A program made the position numbers and the translations under genes. From the IMG/VR virus record IMGVR_UViG_2541047163_000022: a stretch of DNA of 8,081 bases; one strand, given 5' to 3'. Below are positions 24 to 8,081 of this stretch, piece by piece. The notes under the pieces were generated by a model. The model had not been told where the DNA came from and did no database searches. It saw only the letters and a program-made list of their open reading frames with translations. The stretch is from a virus. Its lineage: Duplodnaviria; Heunggongvirae; Uroviricota; Caudoviricetes. The stretch's first letter is position 1; every line of letters begins with the position of its first letter.

Positions 24-578
24 TCAAAAAGCAATAACTTTTTTCTCTATACCAAAAGCCATAACCATTGGTTTGTACAAAATAAATTCTGCCACCTTTA
101 GCCAATGCTCAATGCGTCTTTCACAGGTTCTTAAACTCCATTCCGGATGTGCATCATTCAGCAATTCAGCCATTTTGCGCTTAGTCATCCCCCGCCCCAC
201 ATAACGCTGACTCAGAACATTGAGCAGCCCGGGATAACCTGCCAGTACTTCACCAATAACCCTGTCGATTATTAACGCCTCTGAATCGGTACAATGCACC
301 AGCCAGCTTTTTTGCTTGCCGTTGATCATATCCCGCAAAAAAGCCTCAAGTTTAGGTTTGTCCAGACCTGCTTTTTTCATCCTCCGGAGCGCCTCGTTAA
401 TTGCCGTTTTTGTCAGCTTTTTAGAGGTCAGCAACTGGTTGAACATATTTCCCGTCTTACCGCCGCCAATATACGACCAGCGCCCCCACATACGTAGTTT
501 CCCCTGAATCCAGACACTTTCCAGCGTGGTGAGACGAAGGTGCTCTCCGCTTTTTCCTGTGTTCGTTGGGTAAATCAT
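24..578 (-). CDS. Lambdoid-phage protein of uncertain function; it sits immediately 3' of the DUF1367/DUF1364-like pair, where Q-type late antiterminators usually lie, but the family is not confirmed
   Basis: ORF track 24..698 (224 aa). Preferred start is the internal ATG at 578 (MIYPTNTGKSG...), which overlaps the upstream gene's stop as ATGA (+ strand tcat at 575-578) and has AAGGA about 10 nt upstream. The 698 start would overlap the upstream gene by 124 bp. No motif I can assign with certainty. Confidence 0.5.
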   Translation of the reverse strand: MIYPTNTGKSGEHLRLTTLESVWIQGKLRMWGRWSYIGGGKTGNMFNQLLTSKKLTKTAINEALRRMKKAGLDKPKLEAFLRDMINGKQKSWLVHCTDSEALIIDRVIGEVLAGYPGLLNVLSQRYVGRGMTKRKMAELLNDAHPEWSLRTCERRIEHWLKVAEFILYKPMVMAFGIEKKVIAF

Positions 579-865
579 AAATAACCGTCCTTTCTCCAGA
601 TCTCTTGTGTGCGAAAAACACCTTCTGCATGCATCAGGCGCAATTCTTCTTTGGTGTAATCGCTGGTTTTTACTCTCCCGTCGATTAAATCGTGGCATGA
701 GTTACAGGCAATCGCTGCCTGCATATCGTGTGGCTTTATCGCTGTTCCGCACGTTCCCGCCAGCCTGTAATGCGCCAGCACAGAGGTTTCGGGATTGTGA
801 TTGCAGTAGCCAGGGATTCTGATCTGGCATATCTGGCCTTTAGCCGCTTTACGTAAATTCACCAT
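575..865 (-). CDS. Small Cys/His-rich prophage protein, DUF1364 (YbcO-like) type as I recall the family; putative zinc-binding nin-region protein
   Basis: 96-aa ORF with clustered Cys/His (GYCNHNPE, CGT, CNSCHD). Its start overlaps the stop of the upstream gene as TAATG (863-867 on the - strand), indicating translational coupling. Backbone-like GC. Confidence 0.65.
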   Translation of the reverse strand: MVNLRKAAKGQICQIRIPGYCNHNPETSVLAHYRLAGTCGTAIKPHDMQAAIACNSCHDLIDGRVKTSDYTKEELRLMHAEGVFRTQEIWRKDGYL

Positions 866-1464
866 TACGCAAACTCCAGTAGTTGTGCGGCCACATTTTC
901 AACTTCCTCCTGAGAGGAGAATTTACGGAACAGAATCCAGTTCCACAGCACATTCAGTACAGATTTATAAACCTGCTGAAACTCGACTTCGTCCATATTC
1001 GCAAAAGCGATGGATTTTGCCCGACGCCCACGGCTACCGTCCGGATAAATATGCTCGGTGTAAAATCCGGCCTGAATGGTTACCCACTCGCGGAAAGCCT
1101 CAAACGACTTTAGCAACGCCGTATCCCGGGTTCTACGAGTCGCAACGGTGTTAAGGTATTGCTCTGCGGCATCACTCAGGGCTGGCGTGTGTTCCCGACC
1201 AACTGATTCGCACAGGTAATCAACGAAACCAGACAGCAGTTCTCGTTCGCGAGGCGTGATCGCCCCACCGACCGGAGTCCAGTAATCGAATCCCAGTTGC
1301 AGGAGTTTGAAAAAACGCTTGTGGAATGCGTAGTTACGCACACGCTTAAAATCTGCGTGTATCCACTCACCTATTTTGATTTGATGCAGAAAATCGCAAC
1401 TCTCCGGCGTCGCCGGGAGAAGTAAACCAGAAGAAGTTTGTTTGACCAGTTGTATATGCGCCAT
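865..1464 (-). CDS. Conserved prophage protein, DUF1367-like (family recalled, not verified)
   Basis: 199-aa ORF; stop overlaps the start of the downstream Cys/His-rich gene (TAATG); GAGA-type Shine-Dalgarno upstream of the ATG at 1464. The 83-aa ORF 1367..1618 in another frame overlaps its N-terminus and is judged spurious. Confidence 0.65.
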   Translation of the reverse strand: MAHIQLVKQTSSGLLLPATPESCDFLHQIKIGEWIHADFKRVRNYAFHKRFFKLLQLGFDYWTPVGGAITPRERELLSGFVDYLCESVGREHTPALSDAAEQYLNTVATRRTRDTALLKSFEAFREWVTIQAGFYTEHIYPDGSRGRRAKSIAFANMDEVEFQQVYKSVLNVLWNWILFRKFSSQEEVENVAAQLLEFA

Positions 1465-1883
1465 TTCTCAATCTCTCGATGGCGCAGTGCAGCAGATGCC
1501 AGTTGTTCAAGCTAGCACGCAAATTGTAAACCAGAATGCCAGGAAAAAACAAAACCCGCCGAAGCTGGTTGTGTGCGGTTGCGTTGAAGTCTCCTAGCCA
1601 AAGAGTAGCGGTGACCACTCCCCGCCGATAATCTTAGTTGTTTAATTTCGTAAGCTAACTAGGCTAAAAGCTCTCTGTTGTCTGCCTGTTGTACAATTAA
1701 CAAAATGAACAACGAACTAGATATACCAACGCCAGAATGGTGCAACAAATCCCAAACAACACAGCAATGCAACAATAACATATGTTATTTTCCTCTCACG
1801 GGATTCAGTCCTGAATTCTCATAAAGCTAATCTTTTTTTAAAAACATACTGTTAGATCACATGCACTTTCTTTCTTAACATCG

Positions 1884-1911
1884 TTGACTTCGCATGCGAA
1901 GCGTTTAAAAT
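1884..1911 (+). promoter_or_regulatory. Sigma70-type promoter for the GHKL operon, with an embedded 14-bp perfect palindrome (candidate operator)
   Basis: TTGACT at 1884-1889, 16-nt spacer, TAAAAT at 1906-1911; predicted start about 1918, about 45 nt before the ATG at 1964. The perfect palindrome CTTCGCATGCGAAG at 1888-1901 spans the -35/spacer junction. Confidence 0.45.
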
Positions 1912-1963
1912 CAACAATTTGCACTTAAGGTATTTATTTTCCCAAACACATAGAGAGTAAATT

Positions 1964-3355
1964 ATGACTGAGAACACGACTCCAACAGCAGACTTTAGTC
2001 CTAGTAAAAGATTTTTTGTAAGTATGCTAACTCGAGATATCGACTTAAACGATGCCATACTTGATCTGCTTGATAACTGCGTCGATGGGGCTTTACGTAC
2101 AATAAAAGACACAAAAAAAACTTCAAAACCATATGAAGGATTTTATGCGAAACTTACGATTAATAAAGATGTCTTTATTATAGAAGACAATTGCGGAGGT
2201 ATCCCTAAAAGCTTCCGAGAATATGCTTTTAAAATGGGACGACCCCATCAAAAAGAAGAAGAAAATGAAGGCACCGTTGGCGTCTATGGTATTGGTATGA
2301 AAAGAGCCATTTTTAAAATGGGTAGAGATTGCTCAATACAATCGAATAATCCCGATGGCGCATTCACTGTAGATATAACACCTGATTGGATCGATGGTGA
2401 TGGTTGGAAAATACCGATGCACGAGAGTGACTATGATAACAAAAATCCAACAGGCACAACTATAGAGATAAAAAAACTCCATTCTAATGTGGCACAAAAA
2501 TTTAATGAGAGCACATATCTTACTGATCTCTTTTTACAGATAAAACACTCATTGTCATTTATTATTCAAAAAGGATTTAAAATAGAATTAAATGGAGTTG
2601 TTGTTGAACATAATCCGATTAACATCATAACTGATCATTCTAAAATAGAACCATACATATATAAAGCTAAAATAGACGATGTTGATATCGATTTAGTTGT
2701 TGGCTTCTATAAAAATTTAGAAGATGACAATGATGATGTTTTAGAAAAAAGGAGTTCTGATGATGCTGGATGGACTGTCATTTGCAATGACCGCGTTGTT
2801 CTATATTGTGATAAGACACATCTCACAGGTTGGGGCTTTGCTAATGTACCAAGGTTTCATACCCAATTTATAGCAATTTCTGGGGTTGTTCGCTTTACCA
2901 GTAAAAACCCAGAAAAATTACCAATAACAACAACGAAACGAGGTGTCGATCTTAGTTCTACATTGTACAATGATGTACGAAATAAAATGATTGAAGGGAT
3001 GATGCATTTTATTCGATTCACCAATCAGTGGAAAGGTGAGCATCTTGAAGAAGGGAAAAAATTACTTAAGTCAGCTCAGTCACATGAAGCTCAATCTTTA
3101 TTTGAAATTACCCCACAATCAACTCCAGAAGATAAAAAAAATAACTGGTCCAACCCTAATAGAAACAAAAATGAGTGGCGATATACACCTAAGCTGCCTA
3201 CCCCAGTAAAAAAAAGCTCTACTGTACGAATAATCTTCACCAGAGAGAAAGAAGATGTTAAAATTTTATCTAAATATTTCTTTGGACATGAAGATGCTAG
3301 CGCTTCTGATGTGGGGATGCAATGCTTTGATACGGTGATTGAAGAGGTGAAGTGA
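1964..3355 (+). CDS. GHKL-superfamily (Bergerat-fold) ATPase with N-terminal ATPase domain, MORC/MutL/GyrB-like arrangement; function in this context unknown
   Basis: 463 aa. Motif I D34-LLD-N38-CVDGA (E/DxxxNxxD N-box; codons checked at 2063-2092). Motif II IEDNCGGIP at residues 74-81 (compare GyrB-type DNGRGIP). Motif III G106-VY-G109-I-G111 (GxxGxG). ATG at 1964 preceded by an AGAGAG weak Shine-Dalgarno. Low GC. The stop TGA at 3353-3355 overlaps the next gene's start. Confidence 0.85.
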   Translation: MTENTTPTADFSPSKRFFVSMLTRDIDLNDAILDLLDNCVDGALRTIKDTKKTSKPYEGFYAKLTINKDVFIIEDNCGGIPKSFREYAFKMGRPHQKEEENEGTVGVYGIGMKRAIFKMGRDCSIQSNNPDGAFTVDITPDWIDGDGWKIPMHESDYDNKNPTGTTIEIKKLHSNVAQKFNESTYLTDLFLQIKHSLSFIIQKGFKIELNGVVVEHNPINIITDHSKIEPYIYKAKIDDVDIDLVVGFYKNLEDDNDDVLEKRSSDDAGWTVICNDRVVLYCDKTHLTGWGFANVPRFHTQFIAISGVVRFTSKNPEKLPITTTKRGVDLSSTLYNDVRNKMIEGMMHFIRFTNQWKGEHLEEGKKLLKSAQSHEAQSLFEITPQSTPEDKKNNWSNPNRNKNEWRYTPKLPTPVKKSSTVRIIFTREKEDVKILSKYFFGHEDASASDVGMQCFDTVIEEVK

Positions 3356-4344
3356 TGTCTGGACAATACATTCCCTATCACTTAAGGCATAATAAGTCTA
3401 TTGATAGAGAGATTTTTCTCGAAAGCCTAAACCTCTTAAGCAAAAGACTAAATATTCAAGAATATACATATATAGGTTTTGGTGGTCCGATGCTTGAAGA
3501 TTTTAGAATCATGCATAATCGTATCGCTCTTTCTGATATGATTTCTCTCGAAGAACAAGAGTCTACTCACATCAGACAAAAATATAATTTGCCTTATAAT
3601 TGTATTGATTGTAAGCTAATATCAGCTCATGACTTTATTCTTGATTATAGTTTTTCTAAACCATCAATAACATGGTTAGACTATGCCTCCCCGAAAAAAA
3701 TACAAACGGATCTAGATGATATACACTTACTAAGTACTAAAGTAAGCTCTTTTGATATTTTGAAGGTCACCTTCCCCATAAATCCTAGTTCTTATTACCA
3801 ACGTAGAGTTGGAGAAAGTTTAGATATTTTTAAAGAAGCTTTTATTAATTCATTAAAATCATTGCTTGGGAAAAAGTATCTTGATTTTAATCTTCAGATA
3901 TCAAATGCAGATCTTTCAGATCGTAAGATTAAAGCTCTTTTAATACGAATTATTACAAACGCTTTTAGATCAGCAATAGAACGTGGTCTTTCAGGACGTA
4001 AGGATAAGATTCAGTATTACCCATTATCCTTAAATCAATATAATGATGGCAGTCATACCATGTTGACAATATCAGGTTTTTTCTCCTCAGAACAAGAATA
4101 TATAGAGTTATCTAAGGCATGCGACCTTTCTAACTGGCAATTTTATTCAACAAATTGGGAAGACGTGCAAGAAATAGCAATACCAACACTAACAATTAAA
4201 GAAAAGATAAATTTAGATAGTAAACTGCCTGATAAAGAAGCATATCAGGCAGCCGCTGAAGAGTTCTCTTTAAACGAAAATGAACGGGATAACTATTATA
4301 AATACTATAGGTTATACCCTAACTTCCAAAGAATTATGGTTTAA
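3352..4344 (+). CDS. Hypothetical protein, translationally coupled partner of the GHKL ATPase; no recognisable catalytic motif (candidate effector or specificity subunit)
   Basis: 330-aa ORF. GTG at 3352 and ATG at 3355 both overlap the upstream stop (GTGATG); GAGGTGA Shine-Dalgarno at 3343-3349 favours the ATG at 3355. I found no PD-(D/E)xK, HNH, HEPN or Walker motif by eye. Same low GC as the upstream gene. Confidence 0.7.
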   Translation: MMSGQYIPYHLRHNKSIDREIFLESLNLLSKRLNIQEYTYIGFGGPMLEDFRIMHNRIALSDMISLEEQESTHIRQKYNLPYNCIDCKLISAHDFILDYSFSKPSITWLDYASPKKIQTDLDDIHLLSTKVSSFDILKVTFPINPSSYYQRRVGESLDIFKEAFINSLKSLLGKKYLDFNLQISNADLSDRKIKALLIRIITNAFRSAIERGLSGRKDKIQYYPLSLNQYNDGSHTMLTISGFFSSEQEYIELSKACDLSNWQFYSTNWEDVQEIAIPTLTIKEKINLDSKLPDKEAYQAAAEEFSLNENERDNYYKYYRLYPNFQRIMV

Positions 4345-5463
4345 ATATTCGGGCTGTACTCTTTTATTTAATAAATTGTACAGCCCCTTTAATATATATT
4401 CAGCAACTATTGGTGACACGCTATTTCCTATTTGTCTGAAACTATGCCATTTAGTTACATGAAAGCGAAACCAATCAGGGAAGCCTTGTAATCTAGCAGC
4501 TTCTCTTGGTGTAATCACTCTTGGATGATAAGGGTGGATCGGCCTGACGGCTTGAAAGCTTCCTTTATCTCTAGCGGTTCCCGCCCTTAAAGTCGGGCAA
4601 AAACCATTTGGATCTAATCTTGTAGATCTTGAAATTTTATCAGTTTCCCCAAAAGATAAGGAAGCATAACGCTCTTGGACGATTTTGCTATGTAATGTTC
4701 CGGTACATCCAGATATGATATTATTTTTTAACTTAGCGATCGATTCTGTATCACCAACATTCCGAGGGATCTGCCCCCATAATTTTTCATAAAATCCCCC
4801 TTTTCGATCTTTTTTAATTGTTCGCCAACTCTCAGAGTCTGATTGCCAATTGGCATCGATAATATCTGGTAATCCATACAAAGCATCTTTTACAGTAACC
4901 GGATCAATCATTTTAGGCATAAATACTTCATCTGAAATATCAAGCTTCAATGATTTTTTTACACCGATAAAAAAATATCTAGTTCGAATAGTTGGAGCAC
5001 CATAATCAGATGCTTTTACCTTGATGGGATCAAGAATATCATAATCACCGCTAACCAAATTAAATGCTTTATTTCTAATGCCAGAATATTTCTCTTGCAT
5101 AATACCTGGAACATTTTCTGCCAAAAAGAATAATGGCTGTAATTCTGATACTAAACGGTAGAAATGCATGTAAAGCTGATTCCTGCTATCATCAGGATTC
5201 CCCTTGCCTATTGAACTAAATCCTTGGCACGGAGGACCGCCAATAATACCATCTATGGGCATATCGTTTTTAAAAAAACCCTTAATTATTTCTGCATTTA
5301 GTAAAGAAACATCTTCTTGGACGTGCAAACTTCTTGGAAAATTAATTGCGTGAGTATTAATAGCATGTTGATCAATTTCAACTGCCATTTTAACATCAAA
5401 TCCAGCACGTGCAGCACCAAGACTTAGACCTCCAACGCCAGAAAACAAATCTATTACATTCAT
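4312..5463 (-). CDS. DNA (cytosine-5)-methyltransferase (Dcm/M.HhaI-type C5-MTase), full length, non-permuted
   Basis: 383 aa. Motif I FSGVGG (residues 7-12); motif IV GGPPCQGFS with catalytic Cys79 (TGC, rc of gca at 5227-5229); motif VI FFLAENVPG (E116-N117-V118); motif VIII-like PTIRTRYFFIGV; motif IX REAARLQGFPDWFRF; motif X GNSVSPIVAEYI. Variable region between VIII and IX about 150 aa. ATG at 5463. Confidence 0.92.
   Translation of the reverse strand: MNVIDLFSGVGGLSLGAARAGFDVKMAVEIDQHAINTHAINFPRSLHVQEDVSLLNAEIIKGFFKNDMPIDGIIGGPPCQGFSSIGKGNPDDSRNQLYMHFYRLVSELQPLFFLAENVPGIMQEKYSGIRNKAFNLVSGDYDILDPIKVKASDYGAPTIRTRYFFIGVKKSLKLDISDEVFMPKMIDPVTVKDALYGLPDIIDANWQSDSESWRTIKKDRKGGFYEKLWGQIPRNVGDTESIAKLKNNIISGCTGTLHSKIVQERYASLSFGETDKISRSTRLDPNGFCPTLRAGTARDKGSFQAVRPIHPYHPRVITPREAARLQGFPDWFRFHVTKWHSFRQIGNSVSPIVAEYILKGLYNLLNKRVQPEYLNHNSLEVRV
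4351..4386 (+). terminator. Stem-loop immediately 3' of the GHKL operon (possible terminator or RNA-stability element), embedded in the 3' coding end of the convergent methyltransferase
   Basis: GGGCTGTAC (4351-4359) and GTACAGCCC (4378-4386) form a 9-bp perfect inverted repeat around an 18-nt AT-rich loop, followed by CCCTTTAATATATATT. It begins 7 nt after the TAA at 4342-4344. The loop is long for a canonical intrinsic terminator. Confidence 0.3.
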
Positions 5464-5495
5464 ATAGTTGCAACGTCTCTTATTAGTTTCTATGT

Positions 5496-5525
5496 ATTAT
5501 AACACAACTGTTCTTGATGTTTTAA
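5496..5525 (-). promoter_or_regulatory. Sigma70-type promoter with extended -10 for the methyltransferase
   Basis: - strand reads TTAAAA (5525-5520), 18-nt spacer, TGTTATAAT (5504-5496), i.e. TGn plus a consensus TATAAT. Predicted start about 5489, about 26 nt before the ATG at 5463. Confidence 0.45.
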
Positions 5526-5725
5526 CCCCATAAGATAACCTCATAAAGGCTATCCCTTGAAAATACCGGATCGCATAAATTTAATCTTTCAAAACTACTT
5601 GTCTATTAATCGAGCAATTTAAGGTTGTTTTAGTCATGTCGATACCGACATAGTTAACTAAACCCATTTCATCGTCCAACAAATGGGGGTAATACACTTT
5701 GATTTATAGTCGGGTGGGTTTTTCT

Positions 5726-5761
5726 CTATCTGCCTTTGGTGTTCATGCCCAAGGCAGATAG
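5726..5761. repeat. Near-perfect 12-13 bp inverted repeat (hairpin or protein-binding palindrome) near the right edge of the islet
   Basis: Left arm TATCTGCCTTTGG at 5727-5739, right arm CCAAGGCAGATA at 5749-5760, 9-nt loop, one bulged T, plus a closing C5726-G5761 pair. No U-run follows on either strand, so it is not a canonical intrinsic terminator. Confidence 0.5.
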
Positions 5762-5814
5762 CCTCAAGCACCCGCAGCAATTCTACTTAACTATCCTTTT
5801 CCCGCAAATCGTTT

Positions 5815-5898
5815 TTATCCCCAGCGGCAAATCGAATACACCACCAGCGCCACCGCCATCGCAATTCCTACCGTTGTGAATGCTTCAGGCCAGGTCAT
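5815..5898 (-). CDS. Possible small hydrophobic peptide (27 aa) coupled to the upstream DUF551-like gene; alternatively the remnant of a gene truncated by the islet insertion
   Basis: Hand translation of the - strand gives MTWPEAFTTVGIAMAVALVVYSICRWG then TAA. Its ATG (5898..5896) overlaps the upstream TGA (5897..5895) as ATGA. Backbone-like GC. Too short for the ORF track. Confidence 0.2.
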   Translation of the reverse strand: MTWPEAFTTVGIAMAVALVVYSICRWG

Positions 5899-6452
5899 TG
5901 ATTCACCTCCTGCGGCGGTTCTGGTAGCGACATCCAGTGGGTTGCTTGCCTAAGATCATTACCCGGACTAACTGCTATACCTCCGCGCCGGAACGTGCCT
6001 CCGAGATAGCGTGCGGAATATATTAATGGCCCAGCCTCGCTATCGATATTCATCGAAATAAGCACGTTCTGGCTCTTTTCAGGCATTCGCTCAGTACAGC
6101 TTATCCAGCCATCCAGAGTTATCGGAGATCTGGTTGACGTTTCCGAGATTTCCCGAAAATTGTTGGTTGACGAATTCTTATTTTCCCGAAAGTTTCCGGC
6201 CTGAAGCATGGCGACGCGGCAGGCGTTCCAGCCATCAGCATATGTTTTAGTTACACCGTCGAGATGGCAGGTAAGCAAATCCATTTCATCAGGCACTACC
6301 ATTGCTATCGGCTCTGCTTCCAGTGATGCCAGCGCGATACGAAACACATTAGCCAGCAGGCTGTCTGAAGACTTGTTATCGTGCGCCGAGTCGCTCAGGA
6401 AGCCTGTGATGTATGATTTAATCTCCGCGCGTTCTCTGGTAATAGTGCTCAT
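5895..6452 (-). CDS. Prophage protein with a C-terminal DUF551-like domain (family recalled from the ...HWMSLPEPP C-terminal motif)
   Basis: 185-aa ORF; ATG at 6452 with AAGGAAAA about 8 nt upstream; C-terminus ...ATHWMSLPEPPQEVNQ. Contains an in-frame 33-bp imperfect tandem duplication (peptides NFRENKNSSTN / NFREISETSTR). Confidence 0.7.
   Translation of the reverse strand: MSTITRERAEIKSYITGFLSDSAHDNKSSDSLLANVFRIALASLEAEPIAMVVPDEMDLLTCHLDGVTKTYADGWNACRVAMLQAGNFRENKNSSTNNFREISETSTRSPITLDGWISCTERMPEKSQNVLISMNIDSEAGPLIYSARYLGGTFRRGGIAVSPGNDLRQATHWMSLPEPPQEVNQ
6131..6196. repeat. Two imperfect 33-bp tandem copies inside the DUF551-like coding sequence (in-frame 11-codon duplication)
   Basis: TGGTTGACG occurs at 6131-6139 and 6164-6172; TTTCCCGAAA occurs at 6150-6159 and 6182-6191. 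Both pairs are 32-33 nt apart; roughly 70-75% identity between copies by hand alignment. Confidence 0.5.
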
Positions 6453-6453
6453 A

Positions 6454-6672
6454 TCAGTTTTCCTTATACGGATTAATTTTATTGTGCAGTGCGCTGAATG
6501 ATTCCCATGTCACATCGGTATATAGCTCAATAACTGGTTCAAATGTCCTTCCAATTATCCAGACCAGTAATAGCGGGGATATCGGTATCATCAACACTAT
6601 AAACAGAATGAAAAACAGAAACTCTGTTGTTCTGCTCTTTCGTGGGTAATTTTTTTCTAAATAATGTTTCAT
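6454..6672 (-). CDS. Small hypothetical membrane protein (one predicted transmembrane helix)
   Basis: 72-aa ORF with hydrophobic stretch FLFFILFIVLMIPISPLLLVWIIG. Its stop (6456..6454) lies 1 nt before the DUF551-like ATG (6452). Shine-Dalgarno weak; a GC hairpin sits in its 5' leader. Confidence 0.5.
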   Translation of the reverse strand: MKHYLEKNYPRKSRTTEFLFFILFIVLMIPISPLLLVWIIGRTFEPVIELYTDVTWESFSALHNKINPYKEN

Positions 6673-6799
6673 TTCTTACCGCCCTTTCGGGCGGCCTCCT
6701 GATGTTCTGAGGGTGCAGGAATCCCTCCGGTTAAGGATTTAATAAAAATCGTTTCTGATTTAAATCTTCAGTATTTAGTTGTTAGTTGGTTTATCGCCT

Positions 6800-7111
6800 T
6801 TATGCTTCAGCCTTATTTCGCAACCAGACACAAACCGGGCCATCTTCCGTATCATGAATGGAACCAATAAACCAGCCATCGCCCTCTGGTCGTTCCGGTT
6901 CCCATGCAGAAATATCAGCATCACACGCATCAAGGTCAGCACATCCTTCATCTCTGAAGCAGAGGACGTATTGAAGATTATTTTCCTCCATCCAGGCGTT
7001 AAACTCTTCCGTTGAAATATATTCCCGACCATCACAGAATTTTTCATATTCAGGATGTGTCCAGTAGCCATATCCGTCACGAACTACCGGCATTTCTTTA
7101 ATTTCACTCAC
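6800..7111 (-). CDS. Highly acidic, Cys-rich small phage protein (about 25 Asp/Glu versus 8 Lys/Arg in 103 aa by hand count); function unknown
   Basis: The ORF starts with GTG at 7111..7109 (the track displays M), preceded by a strong AGGAGG about 7 nt upstream (rc of 7112-7125). It overlaps the upstream gene's stop by 8 nt. Confidence 0.65.
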   Translation of the reverse strand: MSEIKEMPVVRDGYGYWTHPEYEKFCDGREYISTEEFNAWMEENNLQYVLCFRDEGCADLDACDADISAWEPERPEGDGWFIGSIHDTEDGPVCVWLRNKAEA

Positions 7112-7331
7112 TGTTAACCTCCTGCAACGCTACACGATACGCCTTCTTTATCCACGCCTTACTGCCATATAATTTCGTCTTCATAATAAACACACCTGCA
7201 CGACTCGCCGATATCCCCGGACAGGTTAACAGCACAGCATCCACCACACGGTTATGCTTCCGAAACTCCATTACAGTACTGCTGATAACCACCTGCCCCA
7301 CCGGGCCGTAATCCTGATACAGGATTTTCAC
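7104..7331 (-). CDS. Hypothetical small phage protein
   Basis: 75-aa ORF with a GTG start at 7331..7329 overlapping the upstream stop (GTGA), and AGGAGGG about 9 nt upstream. Part of the coupled - strand chain. Confidence 0.55.
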   Translation of the reverse strand: MKILYQDYGPVGQVVISSTVMEFRKHNRVVDAVLLTCPGISASRAGVFIMKTKLYGSKAWIKKAYRVALQEVNSE

Positions 7332-7609
7332 GCAGACACCCTCCTGTCGAAATAAACGTAGTTATTCACTATGCGCAGCGGCATGCCTAATTTTCTGGCA
7401 ATTTCCCTTCTTTGCATGCCTCTCTGATGCAGTTGCCGCGCCAGCTCAATATCACGCTGAGAATATTTTGCCGACGGGTGAAAATCACCACGTAACATCA
7501 TGCTGATGCCCAGCTCCCGTGCCTTCGTTCTCACTGCCGCTTCAGTTCGTCCGATAAGTGCGCCAACGCTTTTTACCTTCATCGTTCCCGCACACTGCCG
7601 GAGTATCAT
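7328..7609 (-). CDS. Hypothetical phage protein with helix-turn-helix-like basic segments (possible DNA-binding protein); start uncertain
   Basis: ORF track gives 7328..7732 (134 aa), but that overlaps the upstream gene by 91 bp. Internal ATGs at 7609 (MILRQ...) and 7582 (MKVKSVGALIGRTEAAVRTKARELGIS...) are more plausible. Segments such as IGRTEAAVRTKARELGIS and RREIARKLGMPLRIV look like HTH elements. Confidence 0.5.
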   Translation of the reverse strand: MILRQCAGTMKVKSVGALIGRTEAAVRTKARELGISMMLRGDFHPSAKYSQRDIELARQLHQRGMQRREIARKLGMPLRIVNNYVYFDRRVSA

Positions 7610-7641
7610 GATTTCCGCCCGGCACCACGTCTTCCACCCAC

Positions 7642-8049
7642 TCACCGCTGCTGTTCTCTGGTGGCGGTAATATCCCGGAGAATATCCCGGCACTTGTTCA
7701 GCTCCCGCAGCGCGGCGCAGACTCGCTCCCACTTCTGAACCTGACCTTTTGCCCGGCGCAGCTCGCGGTTAGCCACATGCAGCGATGGTAAAATCAGACC
7801 ATCCGGATGCTTTCTGGTGAACGACGGCTGTGACTGCACTGTGACCGCCACACTTTCCGTTTTTATTTCTTCCTGTGTTTCCGCTTCCCCGACTGGTAAC
7901 GCAACACCTGCTGGCTGAGGAAAGGCTTTACCATCCGTTTCCGTTATGGATGCGGCTTTCGGCTCTGCCGGTAAATCAGCGCCCGGTATGCAGTAACGAA
8001 ATTTACCGCCCTGATTCACGCGAATCAGACGACCTTTGCTGACAGCCAT
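7642..8049 (-). CDS. Hypothetical phage protein (basic, coiled-coil-like C-terminus)
   Basis: 135-aa ORF on the same strand as the rest of the phage chain; backbone-like GC. No obvious Shine-Dalgarno, so it may be coupled to a gene beyond the window edge. Confidence 0.5.
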
Positions 8050-8081
8050 CGCCAGTGATGAATTCGCCCGGCGGGAGGTAA

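What the first reader, a model, noticed from the sequence alone, without database searches (positions are those of the whole stretch)
1650..5700. About 4 kb low-GC islet inserted into the prophage operon between the DUF551-like gene and the DUF1367-like gene
The GC content drops sharply (hand-counted 60-nt samples: about 23-47% inside, about 45-58% outside). The insert carries its own promoters and interrupts an otherwise continuous chain of coupled - strand phage genes. This is the signature of a horizontally acquired moron in a lambdoid nin-region hotspot. I see no integrase, transposase or terminal inverted repeats, so the acquisition mechanism is not evident.
Basis: partly seen in the sequence, partly recalled or inferred. 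Interest (0 to 1): 0.7.

Follow-up and report, generated by a model that had tools for sequence, protein, structure and literature searches.

The report
Prophage islet carrying MORC-ATPase methylation cassette
The low-GC block is a real, horizontally acquired 4.1-kb insert in a lambda-like E. coli prophage; it replaced a hok/sok toxin module and carries a widespread but untested three-gene set (DNA cytosine methylase, MORC-like ATPase, methyltransferase-fold protein) that looks like a restriction-modification-type defence system without a recognisable nuclease.

Summary
GC is 34.9% inside window 1588-5648 and about 48.5% outside. Cargo GC3 is 25-27%, against 47-58% for backbone genes. The best change-points are 1631 and 5710.

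The cargo is a C5 DNA methyltransferase (essentially PDB 3G7U) convergent with a translationally coupled pair: a MORC-like GHKL ATPase and a class-I methyltransferase-fold protein (PF20553). The trio recurs across many bacterial lineages with shuffled gene order, often with Vsr. The ATPase and PF20553 protein match no PADLOC defence model, no solved structure by sequence, and I found no paper on PF20553.

Most likely function: a methylation-gated, restriction-modification-like defence or addiction module. This is inferred, not shown. Interest is moderate: the islet is ordinary, the cargo is uncharacterised.

The parts
1588..5715 (.). Islet-specific DNA (low GC), found only in genomes that carry the cassette
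   Evidence: Backbone homology to about 2,300 other E. coli genomes stops at about 1587. Homology to islet-free prophages resumes at 5716. GC is 0.349, against 0.485 in the flanks.
1877..5525 (.). Core mobile cassette: two promoter-like sites plus three genes
   Evidence: One 3.65-kb block is 79.7% identical to a K. aerogenes prophage with a different backbone (L037). The coding part 1982-5469 is 69% identical to an Enterobacter locus at a prophage end (L039).
1884..1911 (+). Promoter-like site upstream of the ATPase/MT35 operon (TTGACT-16-TAAAAT)
   Evidence: Scores 10 of 12 consensus positions, 53 bp upstream of the ATG at 1964, at the left edge of the conserved cassette. This is a consensus match only.
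1964..3355 (+). [not shown]
3355..4344 (+). [not shown]
4312..5463 (-). [not shown]
   Evidence: PF00145, E = 3e-61. PADLOC MTase_II, E = 2e-98. PDB 3G7U, E = 1e-254 over residues 1-367.
5496..5525 (-). Promoter-like site upstream of the methyltransferase (TTAAAA-18-TATAAT, with a TG extension)
   Evidence: Scores 10 of 12 consensus positions, 33 bp upstream of the ATG at 5463, at the right edge of the conserved cassette. This is a consensus match only.
5716..5796 (-). Remnant of a hok/sok locus: the hok promoter -10 and the first stem-loop of the hok mRNA. The toxin ORF is gone.
   Evidence: 90-95% identical to the hok leader in Rac, Rac-SA53 and 666R9, and matching the F8092B prophage, which has an intact hok. 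Rfam sok hit at 5649-5773(-), 50.2 bits, below the gathering score of 59. The hairpin folds at -26.4 kcal/mol, z = -3.8.
865..1464 (-). Left backbone neighbour: DUF1367 / irsA
   Evidence: PF07105, E = 6e-98. Annotated irsA in phage Rac.
5895..6452 (-). Right backbone neighbour: DUF551 gene
   Evidence: PF04448, E = 5e-20. The same gene lies next to an intact hok in L041.

Best explanation
Window about 1588-5715 is a horizontally acquired cargo module (a moron) in the nin-equivalent region of a Rac/lambda-like prophage of the Sp10 (Sakai) family. The region lies between the replication genes and the antiterminator Q. The module entered by recombination that replaced the resident rem and hok/sok genes and left only the hok promoter and first mRNA hairpin.

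Its core (1877-5525) is a self-contained cassette. A C5-cytosine DNA methyltransferase is read in the same direction as the phage early genes. Converging on it is a two-gene, translationally coupled operon for a MORC-like GHKL ATPase and a SAM-dependent-methyltransferase-fold protein (PF20553).

I propose that it works as a restriction-modification-like self/non-self system. The methyltransferase marks the lysogen's DNA (and the prophage's own DNA) with 5-methylcytosine. The ATPase, as an ATP-driven DNA clamp, acts together with the PF20553 enzyme against incoming DNA that lacks the mark. This would protect the lysogen from superinfection and, as a by-product, stabilise the prophage as hok/sok did.

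Shown: the islet, its boundaries, its patchy distribution, the protein folds, and the conserved linkage of the trio.
Inferred: complex formation, the defence function, and the way the effector acts. No nuclease domain is recognisable.
For: Islet and replacement:
- Composition step.
- The cargo is in 173 of 5,426 complete E. coli genomes, all at least 99% identical, single copy, chromosomal.
- Islet-free relatives carry rem plus hok/mok, or other genes plus an intact hok, in the slot.
- Window 5716-8081 is 99.6% identical to a prophage with an intact hok immediately beyond the junction.
- The cassette occurs in other prophage backbones and at other positions.

The trio is a system:
- In 22 non-redundant loci from Cyanobacteria, Gamma- and Alphaproteobacteria, Verrucomicrobiota, Leptospira, a Gemmatimonadetes MAG, a Bacteriovoracaceae MAG and others, the ATPase gene lies immediately upstream of the PF20553 gene in every case. 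Five of these loci are from Logan/ENA metagenome contigs or a genome pair not tabulated; the rest are in that table.
- A C5 MTase is adjacent in all but four cyanobacterial loci, in varying order and orientation. Vsr is present in about ten.
- The associated MTases have a median pairwise identity of 44% across these lineages, and their divergence correlates with that of the ATPase (rho = 0.51).

Likely active proteins:
- GHKL motifs are invariant, and the fold is MORC-like.
- PF20553 keeps G44 (motif I), E67 (the acidic residue after beta-2) and D110 (end of beta-4), plus a conserved polar cluster, on a confident class-I MTase fold.

Expression in lysogens:
- ECs1954 and ECs1955 are listed among genes whose expression falls 2.6- and 3.2-fold at a growth transition in Sakai (PMC2241611).

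Natural variant: the only partial islet among the 173 genomes (strain F6294) lost the MTase together with two-thirds of PF20553 in one deletion.

Precedent: MORC and paraMORC GHKL ATPases were predicted to act in R-M operons with cytosine methylases and Vsr (PMC2292703).
Against: - No nuclease domain was found in either non-MTase protein by Pfam, NCBIfam, PADLOC or fold search.
- The ATPase/PF20553 pair is far more conserved than typical restriction enzymes, so it is unclear how it would match the MTase's sequence specificity.
- Four cyanobacterial loci have the pair with no C5 MTase within 7 kb. That would be lethal for a classical R-M system unless the MTase is unlinked.
- Neighbours of 17 loci are mostly housekeeping and mobile-element genes, with only a few defence genes, so there is no strong defence-island signal.
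- The residue at the catalytic-base position of the ATPase is Asp, not the usual Glu.
- There are no experimental data on phage resistance or on the methylated motif. F6294 is a single anecdote.
Confidence: 0.6

Rival explanations
1. The cassette is a self-contained 5mC epigenetic or repair module. The MTase is the point of it. The MutL/MORC-like ATPase and the PF20553 protein assist Vsr-type repair of T:G mismatches from 5mC deamination, or they control where and when methylation occurs. They do not attack foreign DNA.
Against: This window and about half of the loci have no Vsr. The ATPase is closer to MORC3, MORC2 and SMCHD1 than to MutL. A repair helper does not explain a conserved SAM-enzyme partner. 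It also does not explain why cyanobacterial pairs lack a linked MTase, or the mobility and patchy distribution typical of selfish or defence modules.
Confidence: 0.15
2. The methyltransferase is a phage anti-restriction gene that pre-methylates progeny phage DNA. The other two genes are unrelated passengers that happen to travel with it.
For: The MTase is on the same strand as the phage early operon, so read-through in lytic growth would raise its expression. Phage-borne orphan MTases are common in this genome region (own knowledge).
Against: Linkage of the three genes survives gene-order shuffling across distant bacterial lineages and in non-phage chromosomal sites. That is not expected for passengers. 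The ATPase and PF20553 genes are translationally coupled and always adjacent.
Confidence: 0.1
3. The cassette is primarily an addiction module. It stabilises the prophage by post-segregational killing and functionally replaced hok/sok. Any defence is incidental.
For: It physically replaced a hok/sok post-segregational killing locus. R-M systems are known to behave as addiction modules (own knowledge). The F6294 deletion removed the MTase and disabled PF20553 together.
Against: This is not mutually exclusive with defence, and there is no direct evidence of killing on loss. It still requires an unidentified toxic activity of the ATPase/PF20553 pair.
Confidence: 0.1
4. The low-GC block is ancestral backbone or a statistical fluctuation, not an acquisition.
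For: A second, smaller low-GC dip exists in the backbone at 6400-6800, so the composition of this phage region is heterogeneous.
Against: The step is 14 GC points over 4 kb, with p = 1.6e-11 and GC3 of 0.25. The block is absent from relatives with otherwise matching flanks and is present in only 3% of E. coli genomes.
Confidence: 0.01

Closest known systems
MORC/paraMORC GHKL-ATPase restriction-modification operons predicted by Iyer, Abhiman & Aravind 2008 (PMC2292703)
   Same: A GHKL+S5-type ATPase encoded next to a DNA cytosine methylase and often Vsr. The operons are laterally mobile. The fold is closest to eukaryotic MORC3, MORC2 and SMCHD1.
   Different: The operons in that paper's main text pair the ATPase with SF2 helicases and recognisable nucleases (RE-fold, HNH, EcoRII-like, TIR). 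Here the only partner is a class-I methyltransferase-fold protein (PF20553), and neither a helicase nor a nuclease is present. The main text does not mention this partner or the O157 genes. Its supplementary lists were not available, so I could not assign this ATPase to a paraMORC subfamily.
Classical Type II restriction-modification systems with a C5 methyltransferase and Vsr (for example the EcoRII/dcm/vsr type; own knowledge)
   Same: A C5 MTase with the full Pfam domain match, convergent or tandem arrangement with partner genes, an optional linked Vsr, mobility, and patchy distribution.
   Different: There is no identifiable endonuclease. The partner is an ATPase plus a SAM-enzyme fold, and both are far more conserved than restriction enzymes usually are (median pairwise identity 42% and 31% across distant lineages).
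Lambdoid prophage morons and nin-region cargo, for example rem and hok/sok in Rac-type phages
   Same: The same slot between the replication/nin genes and Q. Deviant composition, candidate own promoters, transcription in the lysogen, and different cargo in related phages.
   Different: This cargo is a three-gene methylation-linked system rather than a single lysogenic-conversion gene. It truncated the resident hok/sok locus.
[not shown]
   Same: A GHKL-type ATPase used in an anti-phage context, often with a cytosine methylase nearby.
HEF_HK / Response_reg_2 'two-component-like' genes next to C5 methylases (PMC8011034)
   Same: A protein with an N-terminal HATPase_c_3 domain linked to a C5 DNA methylase, interpreted as related to paraMORCs.
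   Different: That architecture is HATPase_c_3+HEF_HK+HATPase_c with a response-regulator-like partner. The protein here matched only the GHKL ATPase domain in Pfam, and its partner is PF20553.

Membership tests
Prophage moron / horizontally acquired cargo islet | Base composition and codon usage deviate from the surrounding phage genes | tested here: met
   GC is 0.349 against 0.485. GC3 is 0.25-0.27 against 0.47-0.58. p = 1.6e-11.
Prophage moron / horizontally acquired cargo islet | Absent from related phages that share the flanks; the slot holds other cargo | tested here: met
   Rac, Rac-SA53, 666R9 and the F8092B prophage lack it and carry rem/hok or other genes. The cargo is in 173 of 5,426 genomes.
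Prophage moron / horizontally acquired cargo islet | Own promoter(s), with expression from the repressed prophage | tested here: inconclusive
   [not shown]
Transposon / integrative element | Integrase or transposase gene, terminal inverted repeats, target-site duplication | tested here: not met
   No such gene. There are only short, imperfect two-copy repeats of the kind the tool warns are often chance.
Classical Type II R-M system | DNA methyltransferase with the family's catalytic domain | tested here: met
   PF00145, E = 3e-61, over model positions 1-322 of 324. Essentially identical to PDB 3G7U.
Classical Type II R-M system | Adjacent gene encoding a recognisable endonuclease | tested here: not met
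   No nuclease family or fold was found for the ATPase or the PF20553 protein.
Classical Type II R-M system | Restriction of unmethylated DNA, and protection by the cognate methylation | not testable with these tools
   This needs plaque or transformation assays and 5mC mapping.
MORC/paraMORC GHKL ATPases | Bergerat-fold ATP-binding motifs (ExxxNxxD, DxGxG, GxxGxG) | tested here: met
   D34xxxN38xxD41, D75NCGG79 and G106xYGIGMK113 are invariant in 26 sequences. The first acidic residue is Asp rather than Glu.
MORC/paraMORC GHKL ATPases | GHKL domain followed by an S5-like transducer domain, giving a MORC-like fold | tested here: met
   [not shown]
MORC/paraMORC GHKL ATPases | Neighbourhood with DNA methylase, Vsr and R-M genes | tested here: met
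   A C5 MTase is adjacent in all but four cyanobacterial loci of 22, and Vsr in about ten.
MORC/paraMORC GHKL ATPases | Assignment to one of the named subfamilies (MORC-specific motif; paraMORC1-5 signatures) | not tested
   The subfamily alignments are in a supplementary file that is not held. The ExxxH motif of paraMORC2 was not evident in alignment A2.
Class I SAM-dependent methyltransferases (PF20553 Methyltransf_35) | Pfam family match and seven-stranded Rossmann-like MTase fold | tested here: met
   [not shown]
Class I SAM-dependent methyltransferases (PF20553 Methyltransf_35) | Conserved SAM-binding residues (glycine-rich loop after beta-1, acidic residue after beta-2, Asp after beta-4) | tested here: met
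   G44 and E67 are at least 90% conserved and D110 is invariant in 75 diverse members. Their positions relative to the strands come from the model.
Class I SAM-dependent methyltransferases (PF20553 Methyltransf_35) | Methyl-transfer activity and identity of the substrate | not testable with these tools
   The name 'O-methyltransferase' is an annotation only. I found no paper on PF20553 and no solved relative by sequence.
Known anti-phage defence systems (PADLOC-DB v2.0.0) | A match of the non-MTase components to a system model | tested here: not met
   Zero families for the ATPase and for the PF20553 protein at E <= 0.01. Only generic MTase models match the methylase.
hok/sok type I toxin-antitoxin locus | Sok RNA / hok leader reaching the Rfam gathering score, and an intact hok ORF | tested here: not met
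   RF01794 scores 50.2 bits, below the gathering score of 59. Only the first hairpin is conserved. The mok ATG at 5651 is followed by a stop after five codons (read from the sequence). It is a remnant.

The most novel reading that the evidence does not exclude
The cassette is a nuclease-free, methylation-gated immunity system. A bacterial MORC-like ATPase clamps DNA that lacks the cognate 5-methylcytosine mark. Its obligate partner, an active SAM-dependent enzyme of the PF20553 family, then chemically modifies the invader's nucleic acid (or a host target) to block it. This would be a prokaryotic counterpart, and possible ancestor, of the eukaryotic partnership between MORC ATPases and DNA methylation in silencing.
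Probability: 0.2. Interest if true: 0.8.

Novelty: new variant of a known kind. Interest (0 to 1): 0.5.

Why it matters
The islet itself is routine prophage mosaicism in a well-annotated pathogen (O157:H7 prophage Sp10).

The cargo is the part worth attention. It is a compact three-gene module, and its PF20553 component alone has about 2,200 representative clusters at 50% identity in public data. It is spread across many bacterial lineages. It is absent from the defence catalogue searched here, and nobody has reported testing it in the literature I could search.

If it is a defence or addiction system, it would add a restriction-modification variant built on a MORC-type ATPase and a methyltransferase-fold effector instead of a nuclease. 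It would also give an experimentally tractable bacterial model, in E. coli, for how MORC ATPases read DNA methylation.

It may also affect the phage susceptibility, gene flow and 5mC methylome of Shiga-toxin-producing E. coli O157 and O111 lineages.

Tried and rejected
- PADLOC, NCBIfam and PHROGs gave no functional name for the ATPase or the PF20553 protein.
- Literature searches for PF20553/Methyltransf_35 found no paper. A search combining GHKL, anti-phage, methyltransferase and restriction returned one paper on jumbo phages, which I did not open. A search for bacterial MORC terms found no experimental work on bacterial MORCs. A search for an O157 5mC methylome found nothing on this methyltransferase. 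A 2025 review of restriction-modification biology does not mention GHKL or MORC.
- Profile searches of the PDB with both families found no solved relatives by sequence.
- The search for terminal repeats that might explain the insertion gave only short, imperfect matches.
- A terminator-like T-run on the - strand at 1525-1600 does not fold better than shuffles (z = -1.3), so I dropped it.
- The promoter scan is not enriched overall.
- I tested for defence-island association by scanning 131 ORFs flanking 17 loci. The neighbours are mostly housekeeping and mobile-element genes, with only scattered defence hits, so this argument is weak.
- I compared pairwise divergence of the three proteins to look for a specificity partner of the MTase. 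The ATPase co-varies with the MTase (rho = 0.51), but shared inheritance would also produce this, so it is not decisive.
- I considered a modification-dependent (Type IV-like) reading and rejected it. An obligately linked MTase would make the host's own DNA a target.
- I considered that the hok remnant might be a functional sok antitoxin gene. The match is below the Rfam threshold and the toxin is absent.


Full report

Yes. A 300-bp sliding window gives GC of 0.29-0.42 from about 1700 to 5750 and 0.44-0.59 in most of the flanks. Recomputed on homology-defined limits, GC is 0.349 for 1588-5648, 0.483 for 1-1587 and 0.487 for 5649-8081. For 100-bp windows the inside and outside means differ with Mann-Whitney p = 1.6e-11. 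An unsupervised two-breakpoint fit puts the step at 1631 and 5710.

Third-codon-position GC is 0.25-0.27 for the three genes inside. It is 0.47-0.58 for Q, ybcO, DUF1367, DUF551, the HTH gene and DUF1627.

**2. Where the window comes from, and the boundaries**

Window 5716-8081 is instead 99.6% identical to another O157:H7 prophage, in strain F8092B. The window is therefore a mosaic of two known prophage types that overlap in 5716-5898.

Three islet-free phages share the left backbone only up to 1464-1516: Rac (MN652886), Rac-SA53 and vB_EcoS-666R9. About 2,300 other E. coli genomes share it up to about 1587. All of them resume at exactly 5716.

In Rac-type phages the slot holds rem plus hok/mok. 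In 666R9 and the F8092B prophage it holds other genes plus an intact hok.

All sequences share the hok promoter -10 and the first hok-mRNA stem-loop (window 5773->5716; -26.4 kcal/mol, z = -3.8). After that the relatives continue into mok/hok, while the window switches to AT-rich foreign DNA. Rfam finds a sok/hok-leader match at 5649-5773(-), but below its threshold (50.2 against 59 bits).

The event was therefore a replacement that deleted rem and the body of hok/sok. It was not a clean insertion.

There is no integrase, transposase, or terminal repeat beyond short imperfect matches. The most economical mechanism is recombination at conserved junction sequences, as is usual for lambdoid mosaics. 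That is an inference.

**3. Distribution**

The cargo (1900-5500) is in 173 of 5,426 complete E. coli genomes. It is always single-copy and chromosomal, is at least 99% identical, and occurs mainly in O157:H7 and O111 strains. Parts of the surrounding window match in 4,541 genomes.

A 3.65-kb block (1877-5525) is 79.7% identical to DNA in a Klebsiella aerogenes prophage with a different backbone, between lambda-P/DnaT-like replication genes and DinI/DUF968. The coding part is 69% identical to an Enterobacter asburiae locus at the end of a prophage, next to purB. In both hosts the block is again a low-GC trough.

The ends of the conserved block coincide with the two best-placed promoter-like sites: 1884-1911(+) and 5525->5496(-). 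The overall promoter-match count is not above shuffles.

**4. The cargo**

(a) 4312-5463(-) is a C5 cytosine DNA methyltransferase. It matches PF00145 (E = 3e-61) and generic PADLOC MTase_II models. It is essentially PDB entry 3G7U (E = 1e-254). Its next-best solved relative is M.HaeIII, over the catalytic N-terminal half only, so its target sequence is unknown.

An exhaustive profile search finds 2,216 representative clusters (1,194 at E <= 1e-30). Among the 150 listed, nearly all are stand-alone proteins of about 320-345 aa, with no fusions. Across 75 diverse members the SAM-pocket positions are conserved (G44, E67, D110), as is a polar cluster (K15, R19, R75, Y230, D232, E284). This suggests an active enzyme with a charged substrate.

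Neither protein (b) nor (c) matches any PADLOC model, NCBIfam model or solved structure by sequence. I found no paper that mentions PF20553.

**5. Are the three genes a system?**

Yes, by conserved linkage. I examined 22 non-redundant loci. They come from Leptospira, Cyanobacteria, Methylomonas, Vibrio, Oleiphilaceae and Cellvibrionaceae MAGs, Achromobacter, Alphaproteobacteria, Verrucomicrobiota, a Gemmatimonadetes MAG, a Bacteriovoracaceae MAG and Enterobacterales.

- The ATPase gene lies immediately upstream of the PF20553 gene in every locus.
- A C5 MTase is adjacent in all but four cyanobacterial loci. It is upstream and co-directional in some, downstream and convergent in others, and upstream and divergent in one.
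- Vsr is present in about ten loci.

The ATPase family alone has more than 5,400 clusters at about 45% identity. The associated MTases are unusually similar to each other (median 44%), and their divergence tracks that of the ATPase (rho = 0.51).

Neighbouring genes are varied. They include housekeeping genes and mobile-element genes (integrases, TniB/TnsB, TrwB/TrwC). There are occasional defence genes: Type I HsdR, a ScoMcrA-HNH protein, Abi_2, PDC-S02 and EcoRII-C. The module therefore behaves as a small mobile islet, but it is not strongly tied to defence islands.

**6. How it most likely works**

The pattern is that of a restriction-modification-type module: an obligately linked DNA methyltransferase, an optional Vsr to repair 5mC deamination, lateral mobility, and gene-order shuffling with preserved linkage.

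I therefore propose two steps. The MTase marks resident DNA. The ATPase, probably as an ATP-driven dimeric DNA clamp like MORCs, acts with the PF20553 enzyme on DNA lacking the mark.

In this prophage the MTase is co-directional with the early phage operon, and the ATPase operon is antisense to it. Lytic read-through should therefore favour methylation of progeny DNA over restriction. This is an inference from gene orientation.

One natural variant fits the logic. In strain F6294 a single deletion removed the MTase together with two-thirds of PF20553.

Weak points:
- No nuclease is recognisable.
- The 'restriction' pair is far more conserved than restriction enzymes usually are.
- Four cyanobacterial pairs lack a linked MTase.
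- The ATPase has Asp where GHKL enzymes normally have the catalytic Glu.

My probabilities are about 0.9 for the islet/moron claim and about 0.5 for the R-M-like defence or addiction function. The rivals are a 5mC repair or epigenetic helper module (0.15), a phage anti-restriction MTase with passenger genes (0.1), and a pure addiction role (0.1, not exclusive with defence).

**7. Comparison with what is known**

The general idea that MORC/paraMORC GHKL ATPases work in R-M operons with cytosine methylases and Vsr was published in 2008 (PMC2292703). That paper's main text describes helicase and nuclease partners, not a methyltransferase-fold partner, and it does not mention these E. coli genes.

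A related architecture next to C5 methylases (HATPase_c_3+HEF_HK+HATPase_c plus Response_reg_2) has been described (PMC8011034), but it is different. GHKL-nuclease fusions of the Shedu type (paraMORC3) have been shown to defend against phage (PMC12137116), but again they carry a nuclease.

This cassette is therefore a new variant of a predicted kind. It is uncharacterised experimentally, and one component already has a solved structure (3G7U).

**8. Verdict**

Two refinements apply: the event was a replacement that truncated hok/sok, and the DUF551 neighbour is specific to this mosaic.

The islet is ordinary prophage biology in a well-annotated pathogen. The cargo is a widespread, untested methylation-linked MORC-ATPase module that would be straightforward to test in E. 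coli. Interest is 0.5.

Noticed in passing
window 5649-5796 (- strand): An orphan remnant of a hok/sok type I toxin-antitoxin locus sits at the islet's right junction. The hok promoter -10 and the first mRNA hairpin are intact, and the toxin ORF is gone. The remnant promoter points into the islet towards the methyltransferase gene, so it may contribute to that gene's transcription.
   Followed up: yes
L036 (E. coli O157:H7 F6294, NZ_CP038372.1), locus 5456-5960: This is the only partial islet among the 173 genomes that carry it. One deletion removed the methyltransferase and the C-terminal two-thirds of the PF20553 gene and left the ATPase intact. That is what would be expected if PF20553 activity is harmful without methylation.
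   Followed up: partly
window 5898: A second mosaic joint. Left of 5898 the window is 99.97% identical to Sakai Sp10. From 5716 rightwards it is 99.6% identical to a different O157:H7 prophage (strain F8092B) with DUF551, DUF4014 and small ORFs. The window is thus a recombinant of two known prophage types.
   Followed up: yes
L034/L035 (E. coli K-12 and LY180, next to glyS): Window 5664-5790 also resembles, at 78-82% identity, a sequence next to glyS that is cut by IS150 in both strains. From my own knowledge this is the chromosomal hokA locus; the records do not annotate it. The cut falls at roughly the same place in the hok leader where the islet junction lies here.
   Followed up: partly
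window 6400-6800: A second, small low-GC dip (0.38-0.40) covers a 72-aa ORF at 6454-6672(-). The ORF has GC of 0.356, matches phrog_1832 ('released from the phage upon host infection'), and corresponds to a gene annotated as DUF4014 in a related prophage. It is not part of the islet.
   Followed up: no
window 24-698 (- strand): The longest ORF for the Q-like antiterminator (224 aa) overlaps ybcO by 124 bp. RefSeq annotates the shorter 184-aa form (window 24-578), which abuts ybcO with a 4-bp overlap. The long form is probably an over-extension.
   Followed up: partly
L011, L012, L017, L018, L019 (cyanobacterial loci): In these loci the ATPase/PF20553 pair has no C5 methyltransferase within 7 kb. 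Every non-cyanobacterial locus examined has one adjacent. Either the methylase is unlinked in cyanobacteria or the pair can work without one.
   Followed up: no
window 1964-3355, residue D34 of the ATPase: The position of the GHKL catalytic glutamate (ExxxNxxD) is an invariant aspartate in all 26 aligned family members. This may mean slow or regulated ATP hydrolysis.
   Followed up: no
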